64,000 bases of DNA from Adlercreutzia sp. ZJ176. Lineage in GTDB: Bacteria; Actinomycetota; Coriobacteriia; Coriobacteriales; Eggerthellaceae. Below are positions 36,667 to 42,168 of the stretch, piece by piece. How positions within the stretch are numbered: the first letter of the stretch is position 1; every line of letters begins with the position of its first letter. The stretch spans positions 18,501 to 82,500 of the forward strand of contig NZ_JAAKEC010000015.1 of NCBI RefSeq assembly GCF_011038975.1, read 5' to 3'. The notes beneath the pieces were generated by a model. That model was given only the letters and a program-made list of their open reading frames with translations, did no database searches and had not been told where the DNA came from. A program made the position numbers and the translations under genes.

Positions 36667-37152
36667 GTGTTTCCCTTCGAAGTCGACGAGCAAAGCGATC
36701 TGCCCCTGTGGGTGCAGCTACGGCAACGGTTGATCTACTTGATCAATTCGGGCTACTTCAAGCCAGGTGACCAGCTGCCCACGGTGCGCGGGCTGGCATC
36801 GGACATATCTATCAACTACAACACGGTGAACAAGGCGTATCTGAGCCTGGTGTCCGACGGCTACTTGGAGTCTGCGCGCGGGCGTGGCGTGTTCGTGCGC
36901 GACCTTGCGGCTGAGGTGGGTGAAGAATTCGGGCAAGACGTTGAGGCCGTGATGGATGAGTTCATCAATACATGCCGTGATTTGGGATTGAACTATGACG
37001 ATATGCTGGCGCGTATCACGCATCGCGTCAAGCAGCGCAAGTTTGAGGAAGCGCATGTGGCGCAGGGCGGCATGCCGGGTGGTCGCGGGCGCATCGTGGA
37101 AGTTGAGGTAGGCGTGCGGAAGGGAGGCGACCATGCGGCGTTCGGAGGATAA
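36667..37152 (+). CDS. GntR-family transcriptional regulator (YtrA-like short form)
   Basis: LPLWVQLRQRLIYLINSGYFKPGDQLPTVRGLASDISINYNTVNKAYLSLVSDGYLESARGRGVFV is a GntR winged HTH. Confidence 0.85.
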   Translation: MFPFEVDEQSDLPLWVQLRQRLIYLINSGYFKPGDQLPTVRGLASDISINYNTVNKAYLSLVSDGYLESARGRGVFVRDLAAEVGEEFGQDVEAVMDEFINTCRDLGLNYDDMLARITHRVKQRKFEEAHVAQGGMPGGRGRIVEVEVGVRKGGDHAAFGG

Positions 37153-38176
37153 GGCGGGCATGCCTGCGGGTGGAGGGCGTGCGTCGCGGGGAGCTGATGC
37201 GGGCGTTGCGGGCGGCGATGCGAGCAGCGTTGGGCGGACGGCGCGGCGTTCGTGGCGCGTGGTGCCCGACAGCCAAAGCGGCTACGCATATACCGAGGTA
37301 ACGGGCGAGCGGGCGTCGAGCGCAGGCGTGCTGCTGTTCTCGACGGTGGTCTTCGCGGTGGTTTTTGTCGTGGCGTTGGGCGCGGTATATCTGGTTGCGG
37401 GCGGGATCGGTCTCGTGGGTATCGCCGTAGCGGTTGTGGCGGCGGCGCTCATGACGTGCTCGGTGCACATCGCGCAGGAGTGGGAACGCGTGGTGGTGCT
37501 GCGATTCGGCAAGTTCAACCGCGTGTCAGGGCCGGGTTTGTTCTGGACGTTTCCCGTGATCGAGCAAAACACCATGCGTGTTGACACGCGCGTGCGCGTG
37601 ACCACCTTTGGCGCCGAGGAGACGCTTACGAGCGATCTGGTGCCGCTTGACGTGAACGCGGTTCTGTTCTGGCACGTGTGGGATGCGAAGTCGGCATGTC
37701 TCGAGGTGGGAGACTTTACGCGTGCTGTTGAGCTGGCGGCGCAGACGGCCCTGCGCGACGCCATAGGGCGCGGCGGAGCTGCTGAGGTGGCCATTCGCCG
37801 TCAGCAGCTCGACCGCGAGCTCAAGCACATGCTTGAAGAGAAGGTGGCGCCGTGGGGCGTGACCGTGCTGTCCGTTGAGATTCGCGACATCCTCATGCCG
37901 TGCGATCTGCAGGACGTGATGTCGCTCGAGGCCCAGGCTGAGCAGCGCAAGAAGGCGCGCATCATCCTCATGGAAGCCGAGCAGGACATCTGCGAGATGG
38001 TGGGCGAGATGGGCGCGGCTTACGCCGAGAATGACGTCGCGCTGCGCCTGCGTGCCATGCACTTGCTTTATGAGAGCATTCGCGAGACCGGTGGCACCGT
38101 GGTGGTTCCCTCAAGCTTTAGCGAAGGTTTCGGTGACATCTTGGGAGAGGCTGGAAAGGCTCCCTTCGTGAGGTAG
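37133..38176 (+). CDS. SPFH/band-7 (stomatin/HflK-like) membrane protein
   Basis: N-terminal TM, then the SPFH core (VVVLRFGKFNRVSGPGLFWTFPVIE...TSDLVPLDVNAVLFWHVWD...). The start could be the ATG at 37160. Confidence 0.8.
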   Translation: MRRSEDKAGMPAGGGRASRGADAGVAGGDASSVGRTARRSWRVVPDSQSGYAYTEVTGERASSAGVLLFSTVVFAVVFVVALGAVYLVAGGIGLVGIAVAVVAAALMTCSVHIAQEWERVVVLRFGKFNRVSGPGLFWTFPVIEQNTMRVDTRVRVTTFGAEETLTSDLVPLDVNAVLFWHVWDAKSACLEVGDFTRAVELAAQTALRDAIGRGGAAEVAIRRQQLDRELKHMLEEKVAPWGVTVLSVEIRDILMPCDLQDVMSLEAQAEQRKKARIILMEAEQDICEMVGEMGAAYAENDVALRLRAMHLLYESIRETGGTVVVPSSFSEGFGDILGEAGKAPFVR

Positions 38177-38284
38177 CCCAGGTAGCGTTGGAGTTGGGAT
38201 GGTAGGGGAAGGCTCCTCTGGGATCATGCCTCGTGCTATAATCGCTTTGCGCTTGGTACCAAGCGATTGGCGAAAGGAGCGTCT

Positions 38285-38890
38285 ATGACGCAATCGACGT
38301 TGGCCAACCCCCAAACCGTTCGCATCTCCAGCAAGCGGCAGATCACCATTCCCTCGAAGCTTTACAAGAAGAAGGGCTTCACTGAGTATGCGTGGGTTGA
38401 GGAAACCGAAGACGGCCTGCTCATCAAGCCAATCGACGTTGAAGACGAGGATGTCTCGCTGTTTGTGCTGCGCCAGCTGGTTGCGGCGGGCTTTGAGGGC
38501 GAGGAGCTCGTCAATCGCTACCAGGAGGCATGTCCGCGCGTGGTGAGCGTGCGGCCTTTGGCAGCGGAAAAGCACCCGGCGTCTTCTGGCGAGTGCGTGC
38601 GCGAGGCTGTCGCTCAAGCTGCCGCTGCGTTTCCCGCAATCAGGAAGGCGTATCTGTTCGGCTCGTTCGCGCGGGGAACCTTCGACGACGAGAGTGACGT
38701 TGACGTGCGCATCGAGTACGATGCTGGCGGCTCGTTCAGCTTGCGCGAGCTCGCGCAGTTCCAGAAGCGCATTGAGCGGGCTACGGGTCGCGAGGTTGAC
38801 GTGGTGTCGGCGAGGCGGCTGAAGAACCGAAGTCTCGAGGCGGCGATTGAGAGGGAGAAGGTGCTCGTCTATGAGCGCGAAGAGCAGTGA
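38285..38890 (+). CDS. Fusion protein: N-terminal AbrB/SpoVT-like swapped-hairpin domain plus C-terminal MNT-type minimal nucleotidyltransferase (MntA-like antitoxin)
   Basis: N-terminus RISSKRQITIPSKLYKKKGF (AbrB/MazE-like). C-terminus KAYLFGSFARGTFDDESDVDVRIEY (GSxxRG...DxD NTase motif). AAGGAG RBS. Confidence 0.7.
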   Translation: MTQSTLANPQTVRISSKRQITIPSKLYKKKGFTEYAWVEETEDGLLIKPIDVEDEDVSLFVLRQLVAAGFEGEELVNRYQEACPRVVSVRPLAAEKHPASSGECVREAVAQAAAAFPAIRKAYLFGSFARGTFDDESDVDVRIEYDAGGSFSLRELAQFQKRIERATGREVDVVSARRLKNRSLEAAIEREKVLVYEREEQ

Positions 38891-39248
38891 CCTTGCGCGA
38901 CTGCAGGAGATCTACGACGTGATAACGCAGACCAAACGCCAGATGAGGGCGCTTGGCATCACGCGGGAGCGCTTTCTTAGCCCAAAGGACGATCAGGACG
39001 ATTTGGTGGCAGAAGGCGTCATGAACCGCGTGTTTCGCGTGACCGAAGAGGCGGGGCATCTCTCCGAAGAGGTTGTGGAGCAGTACGGGTTTGATCGCCG
39101 CGGCGTGCTGGGCGTGCGCAACCGCTTAGCCCATGCCTATGGAGACGTTGATCGGGAGATCATCTGGCTTGTTGTGGAAGACGACTTCGACGCCCTGCTG
39201 AGGTCATGCCAGAGGTATTGCGACGACAACGGCCTTGAGCTCGAATAG
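38871..39248 (+). CDS. HepT-like (DUF86) RNase toxin
   Basis: GVLGVRNRLAHAYGDVD contains the R-x4-H-x-Y HepT active-site motif. The start overlaps the 3' end of the MNT gene. Confidence 0.75.
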   Translation: MSAKSSDLARLQEIYDVITQTKRQMRALGITRERFLSPKDDQDDLVAEGVMNRVFRVTEEAGHLSEEVVEQYGFDRRGVLGVRNRLAHAYGDVDREIIWLVVEDDFDALLRSCQRYCDDNGLELE

Positions 39249-39491
39249 CCGTCGGTGCCGGTGCGGGTCCTCGACGCCGGTGTCAGTGCTGATGCTGATG
39301 CTGATGCCAGTGTTGCTGATGATGCCGGTGCCAGCGTCAGGCATCTTTTTCCAGCGCTGTTGATGCTGGCCAGCTTGCGGTTCGCTGCGCTCTCATGGCG
39401 AGGGCCTTTTGGAAGCGAGGCTGCAAGAGACGTCTGCGTGTGAGGTTCTCGTTCGCAAAGCTCTCGCCTGTAAAACGTCTCTGTCTCTCAA

Positions 39492-39529
39492 AAATTGTCC
39501 TATGATAATTCTTGATTGTCATAGGACAA
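39492..39529. promoter_or_regulatory. AT-rich motif AAATTGTCCTATGATAATT (copy 2) forming an 11-bp inverted repeat with TCATAGGACAA
   Basis: attgtcctatga at 39494-39505 pairs with tcataggacaat at 39519-39530. Sits ~230 bp upstream of the molybdoenzyme operon in a low-GC patch. Confidence 0.45.
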
Positions 39530-39753
39530 TCCTGCTATAGTAACCTCAATGGAATTTGGCCGATTCTATCGTGACGTAAAGAGGTGGATGGCTTCGAGGA
39601 GTTGTCCACGAGGGGCATCGGTAGTTCGAGCCTTAAGCCAGGTGGCATGCGCAGCTGTCTGACGAAGGGGAGAGCGAGGCGGAACGCAGGAAGAGGTGGG
39701 CGTTTTGCCCAATGCGTTCAGCAAGAGATGCTTCGCCAATTCTAGGAGGAGAA

Positions 39754-42168
39754 ATGTCAACAGCGAACAGCTCGCGAGGCGGGCTCACGCGTCGAAGCTT
39801 TCTCAAGACGGCAGGGGCAGCGGCTGGCGCCGTCGGCCTTGCGGGCGCTGCCAGCATGACCAGCACGAGCGGCTGGCTGGCCCCGGCCCAGGCTCACGCC
39901 GAGCCCGAAGAGCGCGTAGCGTACACGTTCCACTATCGTCATTGCCAATGCAACTGCCATCTGAAGTGCACCGTGCGAGATGGACGCATGGTTCTGATCG
40001 AACCCAACGACTGGCCGAATAAGCGCAATGAAACCGTCTGCCTCAAAGGGATTTCGGAAATCCAGCACACGTACAGTGCCGATCGCATCCAGGCCCCTCT
40101 TAAGCGCGTAGGGGAACGTGGCAAAGGAGAGTTCGTTCAGATTACATGGGATGAGGCGTTGGATACCATCGCTGACAAGGTGAAGGAGACTTGGGAGAAA
40201 GACGGCCCTCAAGCAATAGCCTTCCAGACGGCGGTCGACTCCCTAACCACTTTTCTGCCCAAGCTCCTAAAAGGGCAGGAGAAGCCTCGTCGCGGCATAG
40301 ATATCGGTTTGGGCAATGGATTCTCTCCGGCGTTGGCTGAGTCGGGTCAGCAGGGTGCGTCTTCCAACGAGGTAACCGACTGGAAGAACGCCAAGACCAT
40401 TCTGAACGTAGGGTGCAACATGCTTGAAACCTGCATGGTCACATCAAAGTACTTCTTCGATGCGAAGGATGCGGGTTCGGAAATCATTACGATCGATCCC
40501 AACTTCTGCACTACGGCTGCGAAGAGTTCGCGTTGGATTCCCATCGTTGCCGGGACCGATCCGGCGCTCTACTTGGGAATGGTGTCTGTCATTCTCGAGA
40601 AAGGTTGGTATAACGAGAGCTATCTGAAGGTAAACACGAGTATGCCCTTCTTGGTAAAGCGCTCTGACGGATCGCTTCTGAGGCGTGATATCGTGTCTGA
40701 TGCTGCTCAGACGGGTACCGAGAACCCCTTTATGGTTTGGGATGAAGGGACGGAATCAGTTGTTGAGTACCTGGCGAACGGCGTTTCTCCAGCGTTAGAG
40801 CACGAAGCAGTCGTTGATGGTGAGGCTTACGCCACGGTATTTTCCCTGTTGAAAGAGAATCAGCGGCAGTATACGGTCGCGTGGGCCTCTGAGCTTACAG
40901 GCATTGCGGAGGAGACGCTTGTTGAACTGGCGGACAAATATGCTAACCACGGTCCTTCCATTCTCTCGTTTGGATTCGGTGGCGGCGAGAAGTTCTACAA
41001 CGCTGATGTGGCTGGCCACGCAGCAGTTTTACTTGCGACGCTCGTGGGCTCCTTCGGGACGGACGTTCCTGGTTGGGGCGCTGGTGCCTACGTGAACTCG
41101 TACCAGAAGATATTCGGCGCGGGCAAGTTTGCGAGTTGGCCTTTGCCGAGCGAGTGCAAGACCGCAAAAGCCGCCAAAGGCAGCGTAGACTGCCGAGATG
41201 ACAAAAGCGGCATCAAGTTCCTGTGGGCGCAAAATGGAGCGTTTCAGCAAGTTGCGGGAAACCAGAATCGAACCGACGAGTGGGCTCGGAGCCTTGATTT
41301 CATTGTCGTTCAGGATATTTGGCATACGCCGACGGTCGACTGGGCTGACATCGTTCTACCAGTCTGCTCTCATTTTGAGTGTGACGAGGAAATTGGCTTC
41401 GTTCGAGCCTTGCGAGGGCACGTTCTTCTGCAGCAAAGAGTCCTCGATCCCTTGTTCGAGAGCAAAACAGACTTCTGGATCGAGCGTGAGATGGCGAAAC
41501 GTCTCGGCTATGGCGACAGCATGCCCGCAAGTCAAGAAGAGCTTACCCGGTTCCAGCTAGAGAACTCCACTGACAAAGCCGTCGCAGGTATAACGCTCGA
41601 TGAGGTCGTTGCGAGCAAAGGTGTTGTGGCATTGAGAAATCAGCCCGAGATAGCACGCAGCTACAGCGGCCAGACTTATAAGACGAAGTCTGGGAAGATA
41701 GACGTGTACTATGAGGATCTCGTGAGCTATGGGCAAGCGCTTCCCACTTGGGAAGCTCCGCACGAGGCGTATGCGGGCAACGTTCTGCGGGAGCGATACC
41801 CGCTCCATATGACGCAGCGCCGATCGAGGTATTTCGTTCATCAGAACTTCATGGATGCGACGTGGATTCGCCAACACTACGATCCCGCCGTCGAGATGAA
41901 CCCTATCGACTTGGCTGCGCGCGGCTTGGTCTCAGGTGATACGGTTGAGGTGTTCAACGACAGGGGCTCGTTCAAGTGTGAATGCGTGGCGACGGAGGCT
42001 GTCTGTCCCGGTATGGCGATCATCGTTGAAGGCGTATGGCCAAAGTTCATGGTCGAGGGTAACTTGCAGAATGTGACGAACGATGCGGTGAACCCGAGGG
42101 GCAAGGCGCTTGCGAAGGGACGGGTCATTCCTTTCAATGACACGCTTGTTGAAGTCAAGAAAGCATAG
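39754..42168 (+). CDS. Molybdopterin (bis-MGD) oxidoreductase catalytic subunit, DMSO-reductase family, TAT-exported
   Basis: Twin-arginine signal RRSFLKTAGAAAGAVGLAGAA. N-terminal Fe-S Cys motif HCQCNCHLKCTVRDGRMV. MopB and C-terminal molybdopterin dinucleotide-binding regions. GGAGGAG RBS. Confidence 0.85.
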   Translation: MSTANSSRGGLTRRSFLKTAGAAAGAVGLAGAASMTSTSGWLAPAQAHAEPEERVAYTFHYRHCQCNCHLKCTVRDGRMVLIEPNDWPNKRNETVCLKGISEIQHTYSADRIQAPLKRVGERGKGEFVQITWDEALDTIADKVKETWEKDGPQAIAFQTAVDSLTTFLPKLLKGQEKPRRGIDIGLGNGFSPALAESGQQGASSNEVTDWKNAKTILNVGCNMLETCMVTSKYFFDAKDAGSEIITIDPNFCTTAAKSSRWIPIVAGTDPALYLGMVSVILEKGWYNESYLKVNTSMPFLVKRSDGSLLRRDIVSDAAQTGTENPFMVWDEGTESVVEYLANGVSPALEHEAVVDGEAYATVFSLLKENQRQYTVAWASELTGIAEETLVELADKYANHGPSILSFGFGGGEKFYNADVAGHAAVLLATLVGSFGTDVPGWGAGAYVNSYQKIFGAGKFASWPLPSECKTAKAAKGSVDCRDDKSGIKFLWAQNGAFQQVAGNQNRTDEWARSLDFIVVQDIWHTPTVDWADIVLPVCSHFECDEEIGFVRALRGHVLLQQRVLDPLFESKTDFWIEREMAKRLGYGDSMPASQEELTRFQLENSTDKAVAGITLDEVVASKGVVALRNQPEIARSYSGQTYKTKSGKIDVYYEDLVSYGQALPTWEAPHEAYAGNVLRERYPLHMTQRRSRYFVHQNFMDATWIRQHYDPAVEMNPIDLAARGLVSGDTVEVFNDRGSFKCECVATEAVCPGMAIIVEGVWPKFMVEGNLQNVTNDAVNPRGKALAKGRVIPFNDTLVEVKKA

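What the first reader, a model, noticed from the sequence alone, without database searches (positions are those of the whole stretch)
38285..39248. HepT toxin paired with an unusual AbrB-domain::MNT fusion antitoxin
HepT/MNT pairs are normally two separate small proteins, and MntA neutralises HepT by (poly)AMPylation. Here the nucleotidyltransferase (GSFARG...DVDV) carries an N-terminal AbrB/MazE-type swapped-hairpin DNA-binding domain (QITIPSKLYKKKGF). This may combine enzymatic neutralisation and transcriptional autorepression in one polypeptide. The HepT gene overlaps its 3' end and has an intact RX4HXY motif. The pair sits in an accessory stretch between the GntR/SPFH block and the molybdoenzyme operon.
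Basis: partly seen in the sequence, partly recalled or inferred. Interest (0 to 1): 0.65.

Follow-up and report, generated by a model that had tools for sequence, protein, structure and literature searches.

The report
DNA-binding domain fused to MntA antitoxin
This is a real two-gene toxin-antitoxin operon in which the enzyme antitoxin (MntA-type nucleotidyltransferase) has gained the DNA-binding head of an ordinary antitoxin together with its matching operator, a rare variant confined to one family of gut bacteria and not described in the papers I could search.

Summary
Window 38285-38890 (+) is one uninterrupted 201-aa ORF. It consists of an AbrB/MazE-type domain (about residues 8-52), a two-helix hairpin (54-82), a disordered, neutrally evolving linker (87-100) and a minimal nucleotidyltransferase (102-201) with an intact GS-x10-DxD motif. 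A 125-aa HepT gene (38871-39248) overlaps it by 20 nt and has an intact R83-x4-H88-x-Y90 motif.

The fusion with HepT directly downstream is found full length in seven other Eggerthellaceae loci.

A conserved extended -10 box lies upstream, followed by GCTTGG/CCAAGC half-sites and then the ribosome-binding site. The same half-sites precede stand-alone antitoxins that carry this N-module and pair with ParE. They are absent upstream of the MNT genes that have a different N-terminus. The operator therefore travels with the DNA-binding module.

The same chromosomal site (GntR-SPFH | Mo-enzyme) holds AbrB-MNT/HepT, RHH-like-MNT/HepT or AbrB-tail/ParE in different relatives.

Most likely mechanism: the AbrB head autorepresses the operon and the MNT domain AMPylates HepT Tyr90. 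Both steps are inferred, not shown.

Verdict: a new variant of the known type VII HepT/MntA system. Interest is moderate.

The parts
38234..38242 (+). Extended -10 promoter element TGcTATAAT (hexamer 38237-38242); no good -35
   Evidence: Read from the sequence. cGTGCTATAaT is conserved in otherwise unalignable upstream regions of 8 loci. The consensus scan did not call it because the -35 is poor.
38250..38270 (.). Candidate operator. Perfect 16-bp palindrome CGCTTGGT/ACCAAGCG (38250-38265) plus a third, degenerate half-site GATTGG (38265-38270). An outer inverted repeat AATCGCTT/AAGCGATT (38240-47 / 38261-68) overlaps the -10.
   Evidence: CTTGGTACCAAG is unique in the 64-kb window (expected 0.02). 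The half-sites are conserved upstream of the eight fusion loci with HepT and of most stand-alone N-module loci of Eggerthellaceae. They are absent from 10/10 loci whose MNT has a different N-terminus.
38273..38279 (+). Ribosome-binding site AAAGGAG, 5 nt before the ATG
   Evidence: AGGAG is aligned in all orthologous leaders. The alternative TTG start at 38267 lies inside the operator, upstream of the RBS, so ATG 38285 is the start.
38285..38890 (+). Fusion antitoxin gene (201 aa): AbrB-type head, helical hairpin, linker, MNT
38306..38440 (+). AbrB/MazE/SpoVT-type domain, residues ~8-52 (invariant SSKRQITIP)
   Evidence: The AF2 model gives beta-beta-alpha-beta-beta (E13-14, E20-21, H24-29, E36-41, E44-49; pLDDT ~70-77). 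Fold searches were inconclusive.
38444..38530 (+). Two-helix hairpin, residues 54-82 (LRxLxxxG[YF]EGExL), part of the shared N-module
   Evidence: pLDDT 83-88. Also conserved in the stand-alone ParE-linked antitoxins.
38543..38584 (+). Disordered linker, residues 87-100. Its length varies in orthologs and it is shortest here.
   Evidence: pLDDT <50. Alignment gaps. dN/dS 1.05. Homology with the ParE-type antitoxin at the same site ends just before it, after ACPRVV.
38588..38887 (+). Minimal nucleotidyltransferase (MntA-like) domain, residues 102-201. GS-x10-DxD is at 38660-38704 (G126, S127, D138, D140).
   Evidence: Motif read from the sequence. The motif definition is from PMC13000451.
38871..39248 (+). 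HepT (HEPN/DUF86) toxin gene, 125 aa, overlapping the antitoxin gene by 20 nt
39117..39140 (+). RX4HXY motif: R83 N R L A H88 A Y90 (RNase residues and the presumed AMPylated Tyr)
   Evidence: R83-A87 and A89-Y90 are invariant and H88 is present in 9/10 partners. It aligns with GLRNIAVHDY of S. oneidensis HepT 5yep/6m6u.
39327..39355 (+). Weak terminator-like hairpin with a T-run after HepT
   Evidence: consensus match only.

Best explanation

The parts:
- The first ~86 residues are the dimerising DNA-binding module of an AbrB/MazE-type type II antitoxin: a swapped-hairpin domain plus a helical hairpin.
- A flexible linker follows.
- The last ~100 residues are a minimal nucleotidyltransferase.

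Proposed mechanism:
1. Transcription starts from an extended -10 promoter (TGcTATAAT, 38234-38242).
2. The AbrB heads of a fusion dimer bind the GCTTGG-TA-CCAAGC-GATTGG half-sites (38250-38270), which lie between the -10 box and the RBS, and repress the operon.
3. HepT is translated by coupling through the 20-nt overlap.
4. The MNT domain docks on the HepT dimer and uses ATP to (oligo)AMPylate Tyr90 next to the R83/H88 RNase site, silencing the toxin.
5. Loss of the antitoxin, for example by cleavage in the linker or a fall in ATP, would both free HepT and derepress the promoter.

Shown here: the domain architecture, intact catalytic motifs, conservation and purifying selection, co-variation of the operator with the N-module, and cassette exchange at one chromosomal site.

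Inferred: DNA binding and repression, AMPylation, HepT toxicity and the trigger.
For: Architecture and motifs.

AbrB assignment:
- TIGR01439, E 9e-4 over residues 11-50.
- A profile of 37 N-domains hits only MazE/AbrB/SpoVT chains in the PDB.
- 35 of 37 members hit PF04014.
- A distant relative, L061, reaches 30 bits against a 24.7 cutoff and pairs with a probable PIN/VapC-like gene, judged from its sequence only.

Conservation: full-length orthologs with HepT directly downstream occur in L001 and L003-L008. dN/dS is 0.16 for the N-module, 0.12 for MNT, 0.125 for HepT and 1.05 for the linker.

Operator:
- The -10 box and half-sites are conserved while the rest of the leader is unalignable.
- The half-sites lie 55-86 nt before the SSKRQIT codons in the window, L001 and six fusion loci, and in 17 stand-alone ParE-type loci. 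They are found in 0 of 10 loci whose MNT has a different N-terminus.
- The palindrome is unique in the window.
- L009, at the same chromosomal site, has an RHH-like head on the MNT and a different 12+12 palindrome.

Established knowledge: MntA AMPylates the Tyr of RX4HXY in HepT (PMC7641770, PMC8138530, PMC13000451). The AMPylated complexes 7ae9 and 7aer are among the fold hits.
Against: - The window's own N-domain is below every curated threshold (12-19 bits).
- No -35 element is present, and the promoter scan did not call the site.
- The third operator half-site is degenerate here (GATTGG).
- MNT and HepT score below NCBIfam's equivalog cutoffs (50.6 and 30.8 against 60). HepT's match to solved HepT sequences is weak (E 0.27).
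- No experiment bears on DNA binding, AMPylation or toxicity.
- Some relatives show decay: HepT H88R in L005, and disrupted HepT reading frames in L009 and L014.
Confidence: 0.7

Rival explanations
1. The N-module is only a dimerisation scaffold. It holds two MNT domains in register for the HepT dimer and has no role in transcription.
For: AbrB-type domains are obligate dimers (established knowledge). HepT works as a dimer with a composite active site (PMC7641770, PMC13000451). The window's own N-domain scores poorly against DNA-binding AbrB models.
Against: The conserved half-site array sits between the -10 box and the RBS. It follows the N-module across two unrelated toxin partners and changes when the head changes. 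That pattern is hard to explain without DNA recognition. Invariant basic residues K17 and R18 lie in the first hairpin.
Confidence: 0.1
2. The fusion neutralises HepT mainly by stoichiometric binding, like a type II antitoxin, and the nucleotidyltransferase activity is dispensable or lost.
For: MntA-HepT form tight complexes (PMC4621449). MNT here scores below the NCBIfam MntA equivalog cutoff. A related long AbrB-MNT form (L033/L036) has lost the first catalytic Asp.
Against: GS-x10-DxD and VDV (D172) are intact here and invariant or nearly invariant in the 25-sequence alignment. Tyr90 is invariant in all 10 partners. MNT dN/dS is 0.12. In characterised systems binding alone does not fully neutralise the toxin (PMC8138530).
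Confidence: 0.15
3. The single ORF is an artefact: two adjacent genes (a small AbrB antitoxin and an MNT) merged by a sequencing or assembly frameshift, or the true MNT starts internally.
For: Stand-alone proteins with the same N-module (121-135 aa) exist. The linker evolves neutrally.
Against: The uninterrupted frame, full length with HepT downstream, is found in L001 and six GTDB species (L003-L008), and the fusion in about 30 clusters at 90% identity from independent isolates and metagenomes. There is no internal Met in the 201 aa. The RBS lies only before ATG 38285.
Confidence: 0.02
4. The pair is not an addiction or stress TA module. It is an anti-phage abortive-infection module in which the AbrB head senses or responds to phage DNA or proteins.
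For: The MNT part matches the PADLOC candidate defence family PDC-S09. HEPN RNases are common defence effectors (PMC3710099). The site is a variable cassette hot spot.
Against: No other defence genes flank it; the neighbours are GntR, SPFH and a molybdoenzyme operon. HepT has no PADLOC hit. This reading concerns biological role and does not contradict the molecular mechanism above.
Confidence: 0.1

Closest known systems
Type VII HepT/MntA (HEPN/MNT) toxin-antitoxin systems, e.g. Shewanella oneidensis SO_3165/SO_3166 and Aphanizomenon flos-aquae MNT-HEPN (PDB 5yep, 7aer, 6m6u, 7bxo, 7ae9)
   Same: The gene order is MNT then HepT, with overlapping ORFs. The MNT has a pol-beta minimal NTase fold with GS-x10-DxD. 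HepT is DUF86/PF01934 with RX4HXY and the Tyr two residues after His.
   Different: [quoted passage not shown] Here a ~100-aa AbrB-type module and linker precede the MNT, and a matching operator is present. Sequence similarity to the characterised pairs is low (11-29% identity in the fold alignments).
AbrB/MazE-type type II antitoxins paired with ParE in Eggerthellaceae and Firmicutes (uncharacterised; e.g. loci L020, L024, L035, L056)
   Same: They share the same ~90-aa N-module, with 48-75% identity for the Eggerthellaceae members. Those members also share the CCAAGC/GCTTGG operator and its position between the -10 box and the RBS. One of them (L002) occupies the same chromosomal site.
   Different: Their C-terminus is a ~35-aa tail ending in ...YGL, presumably wrapping ParE. 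Here that tail and ParE are replaced by an enzymatic MNT domain and HepT.
RHH-like/RelB-headed MNT antitoxins with HepT in Coriobacteriia (uncharacterised; loci L009, L012-L017; P0054, P0065, P0086)
   Same: The MNT (59-71% identity) and HepT (62-68% identity where the gene is intact) belong to the same clade. The plan is also the same: DNA-binding head, linker, MNT. L009 sits at the same chromosomal site.
   Different: The head is of a different kind. It is RelB (PF04221) for three clusters by precomputed Pfam. It is RHH-like by sequence pattern only for the others, with no Pfam hit for the two members tested. The operator also differs (TGTTGTATTGCA/TGCAATACAACA in L009).
Fused MNT-HEPN single-chain systems (FhepTA; PMC13000451)
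   Same: This is another architectural variant of the type VII module that uses GS-x10-DxD and the Tyr for oligoAMPylation.
   Different: There the toxin and antitoxin are fused to each other. Here they stay separate and the antitoxin is fused to a DNA-binding domain.

Membership tests
[quoted passage not shown] | Antitoxin with a minimal pol-beta nucleotidyltransferase fold and a GS-x10-DxD catalytic motif | tested here: met
   PF18765 at 55 bits and PF01909 at 49 bits, both above cutoff. Foldseek top hits are MNT antitoxins 8xeo, 8xeh, 7bxo and 7ae9. G126-S127-x10-D138-V-D140 is read from the sequence. The NCBIfam MntA equivalog scores 50.6, below its cutoff of 60.
[quoted passage not shown] | Toxin of the HepT/DUF86 HEPN family with an Rx4-6H RNase motif | tested here: met
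   PF01934 at 34.0 bits, above the 23.5 cutoff. R83-x4-H88 is conserved. The NCBIfam HepT equivalog scores 30.8, below its cutoff of 60. The PDB HepT match is weak (E 0.27), though aligned on the motif.
[quoted passage not shown] | Conserved Tyr two residues after the His (the AMPylation site) | tested here: met
   Y90 is invariant in 10/10 partners and aligns with Y104 of S. oneidensis HepT.
[quoted passage not shown] | MNT gene upstream of, and co-transcribed or overlapping with, HepT | tested here: met
   A 20-nt overlap at 38871-38890. The same arrangement occurs in L001, L003-L009 and L012-L017.
[quoted passage not shown] | HepT is toxic and is neutralised by MntA-catalysed (oligo)AMPylation | not testable with these tools
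   Needs growth and rescue assays and mass spectrometry.
AbrB/MazE/SpoVT swapped-hairpin DNA-binding domain | Significant sequence match to the family models (PF04014, TIGR01439) | tested here: inconclusive
   The window sequence alone gives PF04014 at 12-16 bits (cutoff 24.7) and TIGR01439 at 18.9 bits (cutoff 28.3, E 9e-4). At family level, 35/37 homologous N-domains hit PF04014 at E<0.1 (best 8.4e-10). Their profile hits only MazE/AbrB/SpoVT chains in the PDB (E 0.002-0.03).
AbrB/MazE/SpoVT swapped-hairpin DNA-binding domain | beta1-beta2-alpha-beta3-beta4 topology of the half-barrel | tested here: met
   The full-length AF2 model gives E13-14, E20-21, H24-29, E36-41 and E44-49 with pLDDT ~70-77. 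In the N-only model the first hairpin is not assigned as strand.
AbrB/MazE/SpoVT swapped-hairpin DNA-binding domain | Significant 3-D similarity to solved AbrB-type structures | tested here: inconclusive
AbrB/MazE/SpoVT swapped-hairpin DNA-binding domain | Homodimerisation and sequence-specific DNA binding | not testable with these tools
   Only indirect evidence: a conserved half-site operator that co-varies with the domain.
Type II AbrB-type antitoxin of ParDE-like modules (source of the N-module) | Short disordered C-terminal toxin-binding tail and a ParE/RelE-fold partner downstream | tested here: not met
   The window protein has an MNT domain instead of the tail, and HepT instead of ParE. 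It shares only the N-module and operator with that family.

The most novel reading that the evidence does not exclude
The locus captures modular evolution of an enzymatic (type VII) antitoxin as it happens. A [promoter-operator + DNA-binding head] cassette and a [neutraliser + toxin] cassette recombine independently at one chromosomal hot spot. The result is AbrB-MNT/HepT, RHH-like-MNT/HepT and AbrB-tail/ParE alleles. If the fused head also makes operator occupancy depend on the MNT-HepT complex or on HepT's AMPylation state, this would be the first type VII system in which transcription is coupled to the toxin's state in the way type II conditional cooperativity is, that is, to a covalent modification and to ATP supply.
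Probability: 0.2. Interest if true: 0.7.

Novelty: new variant of a known kind. Interest (0 to 1): 0.5.

Why it matters
Type VII HepT/MntA modules are among the most abundant TA systems. Yet their antitoxins are described as lacking a DNA-binding domain (PMC7641770). The only reported autoregulation is a weak, mechanistically unexplained promoter shift by S. oneidensis MntA (PMC4621449).

A lineage in which MntA carries a recognisable AbrB-type head with a defined, conserved operator gives a tractable model for how enzymatic antitoxins are transcriptionally controlled. It also shows that the 'mix and match' modularity known for type II antitoxins extends to enzymatic ones.

The three natural alleles at one site amount to a ready-made domain-swap experiment. 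The hosts are Eggerthellaceae (Adlercreutzia and relatives).

Tried and rejected

2. Pfam and NCBIfam on the window's N-domain alone were sub-threshold. I therefore moved to family-level profiles.

3. A HepT profile against PDB sequences gave only E 0.27. Membership therefore rests on Pfam PF01934 and the motif.

4. The promoter consensus scan did not flag the upstream region. The extended -10 was found by reading the sequence and by cross-species alignment.

5. Six full-text literature searches and seven papers consulted by term search found no description of an AbrB- or RHH-headed MNT antitoxin. Absence from this library does not prove absence from the literature. UniRef already labels one ortholog (P0029) as a SpoVT-AbrB domain protein.

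6. I considered and rejected a mis-joined gene or an internal start (see rivals), and also the TTG at 38267 as the start, because it lies inside the operator and upstream of the RBS.

7. The PADLOC scan gave only an MNT match to candidate family PDC-S09 and nothing for HepT. That is not enough to call the pair a defence system.
Full report
**1. What is in the sequence**

Window 38285-38890 (+) is one 201-aa ORF with no internal stop or Met. AAAGGAG (38273-38279) lies 5 nt upstream of its ATG. A second ORF of 125 aa (38871-39248) starts 20 nt before the first one's TGA.

Upstream are a GntR regulator (36667-37152) and an SPFH/Band_7 protein (37133-38176). Downstream is a molybdopterin oxidoreductase (39712-42168).

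**2. Domain identities: the C-terminal half of the fusion**

Residues 110-201 match Pfam Polbeta (E 8e-15) and NTP_transf_2 (E 1e-12). They also match NCBIfam MntA_antitoxin at 50.6 bits, below its equivalog cutoff of 60.

An AlphaFold2 model was built on 25 orthologs (mean pLDDT 77.5, with the MNT part at 82-92). Foldseek found solved MNT antitoxins as its best hits: 8xeo, 8xeh, 7bxo, 7ae9, 6m6u, 1wot and 1no5 (E 2e-7 to 1e-3).

The catalytic signature G126-S127-x10-D138-x-D140 is exactly the GS-x10-DxD defined for MntA (PMC13000451).

**3. Domain identities: HepT**

The second protein matches PF01934 (HepT-like) at 34 bits, above the 23.5 cutoff. In an alignment of ten partner proteins, R83-N-R-L-A and A89-Y90 are invariant and H88 is present in 9 of 10. 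The motif aligns with GLRNIAVHDY of S. oneidensis HepT, although the whole-sequence match is weak (E 0.27).

**4. Domain identities: the N-terminal domain**

This is the weakest link for the single sequence. PF04014 gives E 0.01-0.2. TIGR01439 gives E 9e-4 over residues 11-50. Both are below cutoff.

At family level the assignment is sound:
- I collected 37 non-identical N-domains from 63 GTDB loci.
- 35 of them hit PF04014 individually (best 8.4e-10), and no other family competes.
- Their profile, searched against all PDB sequences up to E = 10, returned seven chains. All are MazE, AbrB or SpoVT-family proteins (1mvf, 1ub4, 2mrn, 7d2n, 5itm, 2l66, 5itj; E 0.002-0.03).
- A distant relative, L061, shares VRISSKRQITIPSKIF and passes Pfam's own cutoff. 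It is followed by a gene that looks PIN/VapC-like from its sequence, which I did not test.

The AF2 model gives the expected beta-beta-alpha-beta-beta order at residues 13-49. Two helices follow (54-67, 72-82), and then a disordered stretch (87-99, pLDDT <50).

**5. The fusion is real and conserved**

The search for homologous proteins returned about 30 clusters at 90% identity that cover the full length. All are from Eggerthellaceae: Adlercreutzia sp. ZJ242 at 90%, A. equolifaciens, A. wanghongyangiae, Parvibacter caecicola and several MAGs. UniRef already names the Parvibacter ortholog a SpoVT-AbrB domain protein.

All of them start at the upstream Met. Invariant residues cover both halves: S15, K17-P23, Y27, G31 and F32 in the head, and F125, G126, A129, R130, D140 and R142 in the MNT domain.

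Against the ZJ242 ortholog, dN/dS is 0.16 for the N-module, 0.12 for MNT and 0.125 for HepT. It is 1.05 for the linker (counts are small). So both domains and the toxin are maintained by selection, and the linker is free to vary. The linker's length also varies, and it is shortest in this window.

In the library of 1.84 billion representatives at 50% identity, only about five clusters show full AbrB+MNT coverage: P0010, P0035 (frameshifted), P0098, P0122 and P0124. The architecture is therefore rare and restricted to this lineage.

**6. Where the parts came from**

The same ~90-aa N-module (AbrB head plus helical hairpin) is widespread as the front half of 121-135-aa stand-alone proteins. It occurs in Raoultibacter, Paraeggerthella, Rubneribacter, Gordonibacter and Slackia, and more distantly in Firmicutes. 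The downstream partners I tested, one from each group, are ParE toxins: PF05016 at E 2e-8 and PF15781 at E 1e-24.

Conversely, the closest MNT domains (59-71% identity) belong to 170-200-aa Coriobacteriia proteins with different N-terminal heads:
- Three clusters have RelB (PF04221) by precomputed Pfam.
- Others are RHH-like by sequence pattern only (VSLRLP..., helix, KTDAYLHFL). The two members I tested have no Pfam hit for that region.
- L009 and L012-L017 have a HepT gene directly downstream, though its reading frame is disrupted in L009 and L014. L023 has none within the flanks.

The window protein is thus a chimera of a type II antitoxin's DNA-binding module and a type VII enzymatic neutraliser.

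**7. One chromosomal site, three cassettes**

tblastn of the window's flanking proteins against all fetched loci shows that the GntR-Band_7 | Mo-enzyme site holds different cassettes in different relatives:
- AbrB-MNT/HepT in the window, in L001 and in L008.
- RHH-like-MNT/HepT in Adlercreutzia sp. Marseille-QA1605 (L009; HepT is frameshifted there).
- AbrB-tail plus a ParE-like reading frame in a metagenomic relative (L002; Band_7 79% identical).

Homology between the window protein and the L002 antitoxin runs through ...YxEACPRVV (residue ~88). It stops exactly where the linker begins.

**8. Promoter and operator**

The 110-nt leader is unalignable between species except for one block. That block is cGTGCTATAaT (an extended -10; window 38234-38242), then GCTTGG-TA-CCAAGC-G(C/A)TTGG (window 38250-38270), then the RBS.

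Anchoring all Eggerthellaceae leaders on CCAAG shows two or three CCAAGC/GCTTGG half-sites, always between a TAnAnT box and AGGAGG:
- They are inverted in the fusion loci.
- They are direct plus inverted, or three direct repeats with an 8-bp period, in the ParE-type loci.

A pattern search found such a pair within 200 nt upstream in all six GTDB fusion loci with HepT (L003-L008) and in the window. The leader alignments show it in L001 as well. It was also found in 17 stand-alone loci of Eggerthellaceae and relatives, and in none of the ten loci whose MNT has a different N-terminus. It is usually the only occurrence in the ~6-kb locus.

CTTGGTACCAAG occurs once in the 64-kb window, against 0.02 expected.

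At the same chromosomal site, the RHH-headed allele L009 instead has a perfect 12+12 palindrome, TGTTGTATTGCA-tt-TGCAATACAACA.

The operator therefore follows the DNA-binding head, not the toxin module. This is the expected signature of autoregulation by that head. It is comparative inference; no binding was measured.

**9. Mechanism**

Best explanation, confidence about 0.7:
- An AbrB-mediated dimer of the fusion binds the half-sites that overlap the transcription start region and represses the operon.
- HepT is translationally coupled through the 20-nt overlap.
- The MNT domain AMPylates HepT Tyr90 beside the R83/H88 active site, as shown for S. oneidensis and A. flos-aquae MntA/HepT (PMC7641770, PMC8138530, PMC13000451).
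- The neutrally evolving, disordered linker is a plausible protease-sensitive hinge. That last point is speculation.

Rivals are a scaffold-only N-module (0.1), sequestration without catalysis (0.15), an annotation artefact (0.02) and a phage-defence role (0.1). The defence role is compatible with the same chemistry.

**10. Comparison with what is known, and novelty**

The system passes every sequence-level membership test for type VII HepT/MntA. The exception is NCBIfam's strict equivalog cutoffs.

It differs in having a fused DNA-binding head. [quoted passage not shown] Yao et al. 2015 found that S. oneidensis MntA, which has no predicted DNA-binding domain, shifted its promoter, with only 1.6-fold derepression on deletion (PMC4621449).

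None of the six full-text searches turned up a paper describing AbrB- or RHH-headed MNT antitoxins, and none of the seven papers I consulted by term search mentions one.

I classify this as a new variant of a known kind. Modular shuffling of antitoxin DNA-binding domains is well known for type II systems, so a specialist would find it a neat extension rather than a shock. Interest is 0.5.

**11. Limits**

No experiment was possible, and there was no multimer prediction. The AbrB fold rests on profile evidence and secondary-structure order. The -35 region is poor, and the third half-site is degenerate here. The dN/dS counts are small.

Noticed in passing
window 39494-39530: A 16-nt inverted repeat ATTGTCCTATGATAAT / ATTGTCATAGGACAAT (94% complementary, 5-nt spacer) overlaps three promoter-like sites about 180 nt upstream of the molybdopterin oxidoreductase gene (39712). 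It is a likely regulator-binding site for that operon.
   Followed up: no
window 39273-39368: Degenerate GCTGATG/GCCGGTGCCAG-type direct repeats fill the spacer after HepT. There is no convincing ORF on either strand, and a weak terminator-like hairpin lies at 39327-39345. Their origin is unexplained.
   Followed up: no
window 36667-42168 vs L001: Identity to Adlercreutzia sp. ZJ242 is 96% for GntR, 92% for Band_7, 90% for the fusion and 94% for HepT. It drops to 68% for the downstream molybdoenzyme. The TA pair therefore sits at a recombination or replacement boundary.
   Followed up: partly
L010 2995-3723; L033 1490-2302; L036 2893-3741 (Candidatus Aveggerthella and a relative): These are longer (242-282 aa) AbrB-long linker-MNT proteins. 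In L033 and L036 the first catalytic Asp is replaced (KSPVDARIE). No HepT homolog lies within 3 kb in any of the three. A CTTGGnnCCAAG palindrome is still upstream in L033 and L036. They may be orphaned or repurposed regulators.
   Followed up: partly
L005 3632-4021; L009 3254-3769; L014 3209-3640: HepT partners show decay in some species. In A. wanghongyangiae R7 the catalytic His is Arg (RNRLARAY). In Adlercreutzia sp. Marseille-QA1605 and one Coriobacteriales MAG the HepT reading frame is disrupted: tblastn matches it in two separate pieces.
   Followed up: partly
L011, L018-L041 (Eggerthellaceae) and L043-L065 (Firmicutes and others): A large family, uncharacterised as far as my searches went, of AbrB + helical-hairpin antitoxins (121-135 aa; the tail ends in ...R.KYGL in Eggerthellaceae). 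The two partners I tested are ParE/ParE-like toxins. The Eggerthellaceae members share the CCAAGC operator, sometimes as three direct repeats with an 8-bp period.
   Followed up: partly
L002 3350-3497: At the window's chromosomal site in a metagenomic relative, the ParE-like reading frame after the AbrB-tail antitoxin seems shifted by one base near its start. This could be a pseudogene or an assembly error.
   Followed up: no
L016 (record titled Alistipes onderdonkii): An RHH-like-MNT/HepT locus 64% identical in MNT to the Coriobacteriia type sits on a 13.5-kb contig binned as a Bacteroidota genome. This could be a mis-binned contig or horizontal transfer.
   Followed up: no
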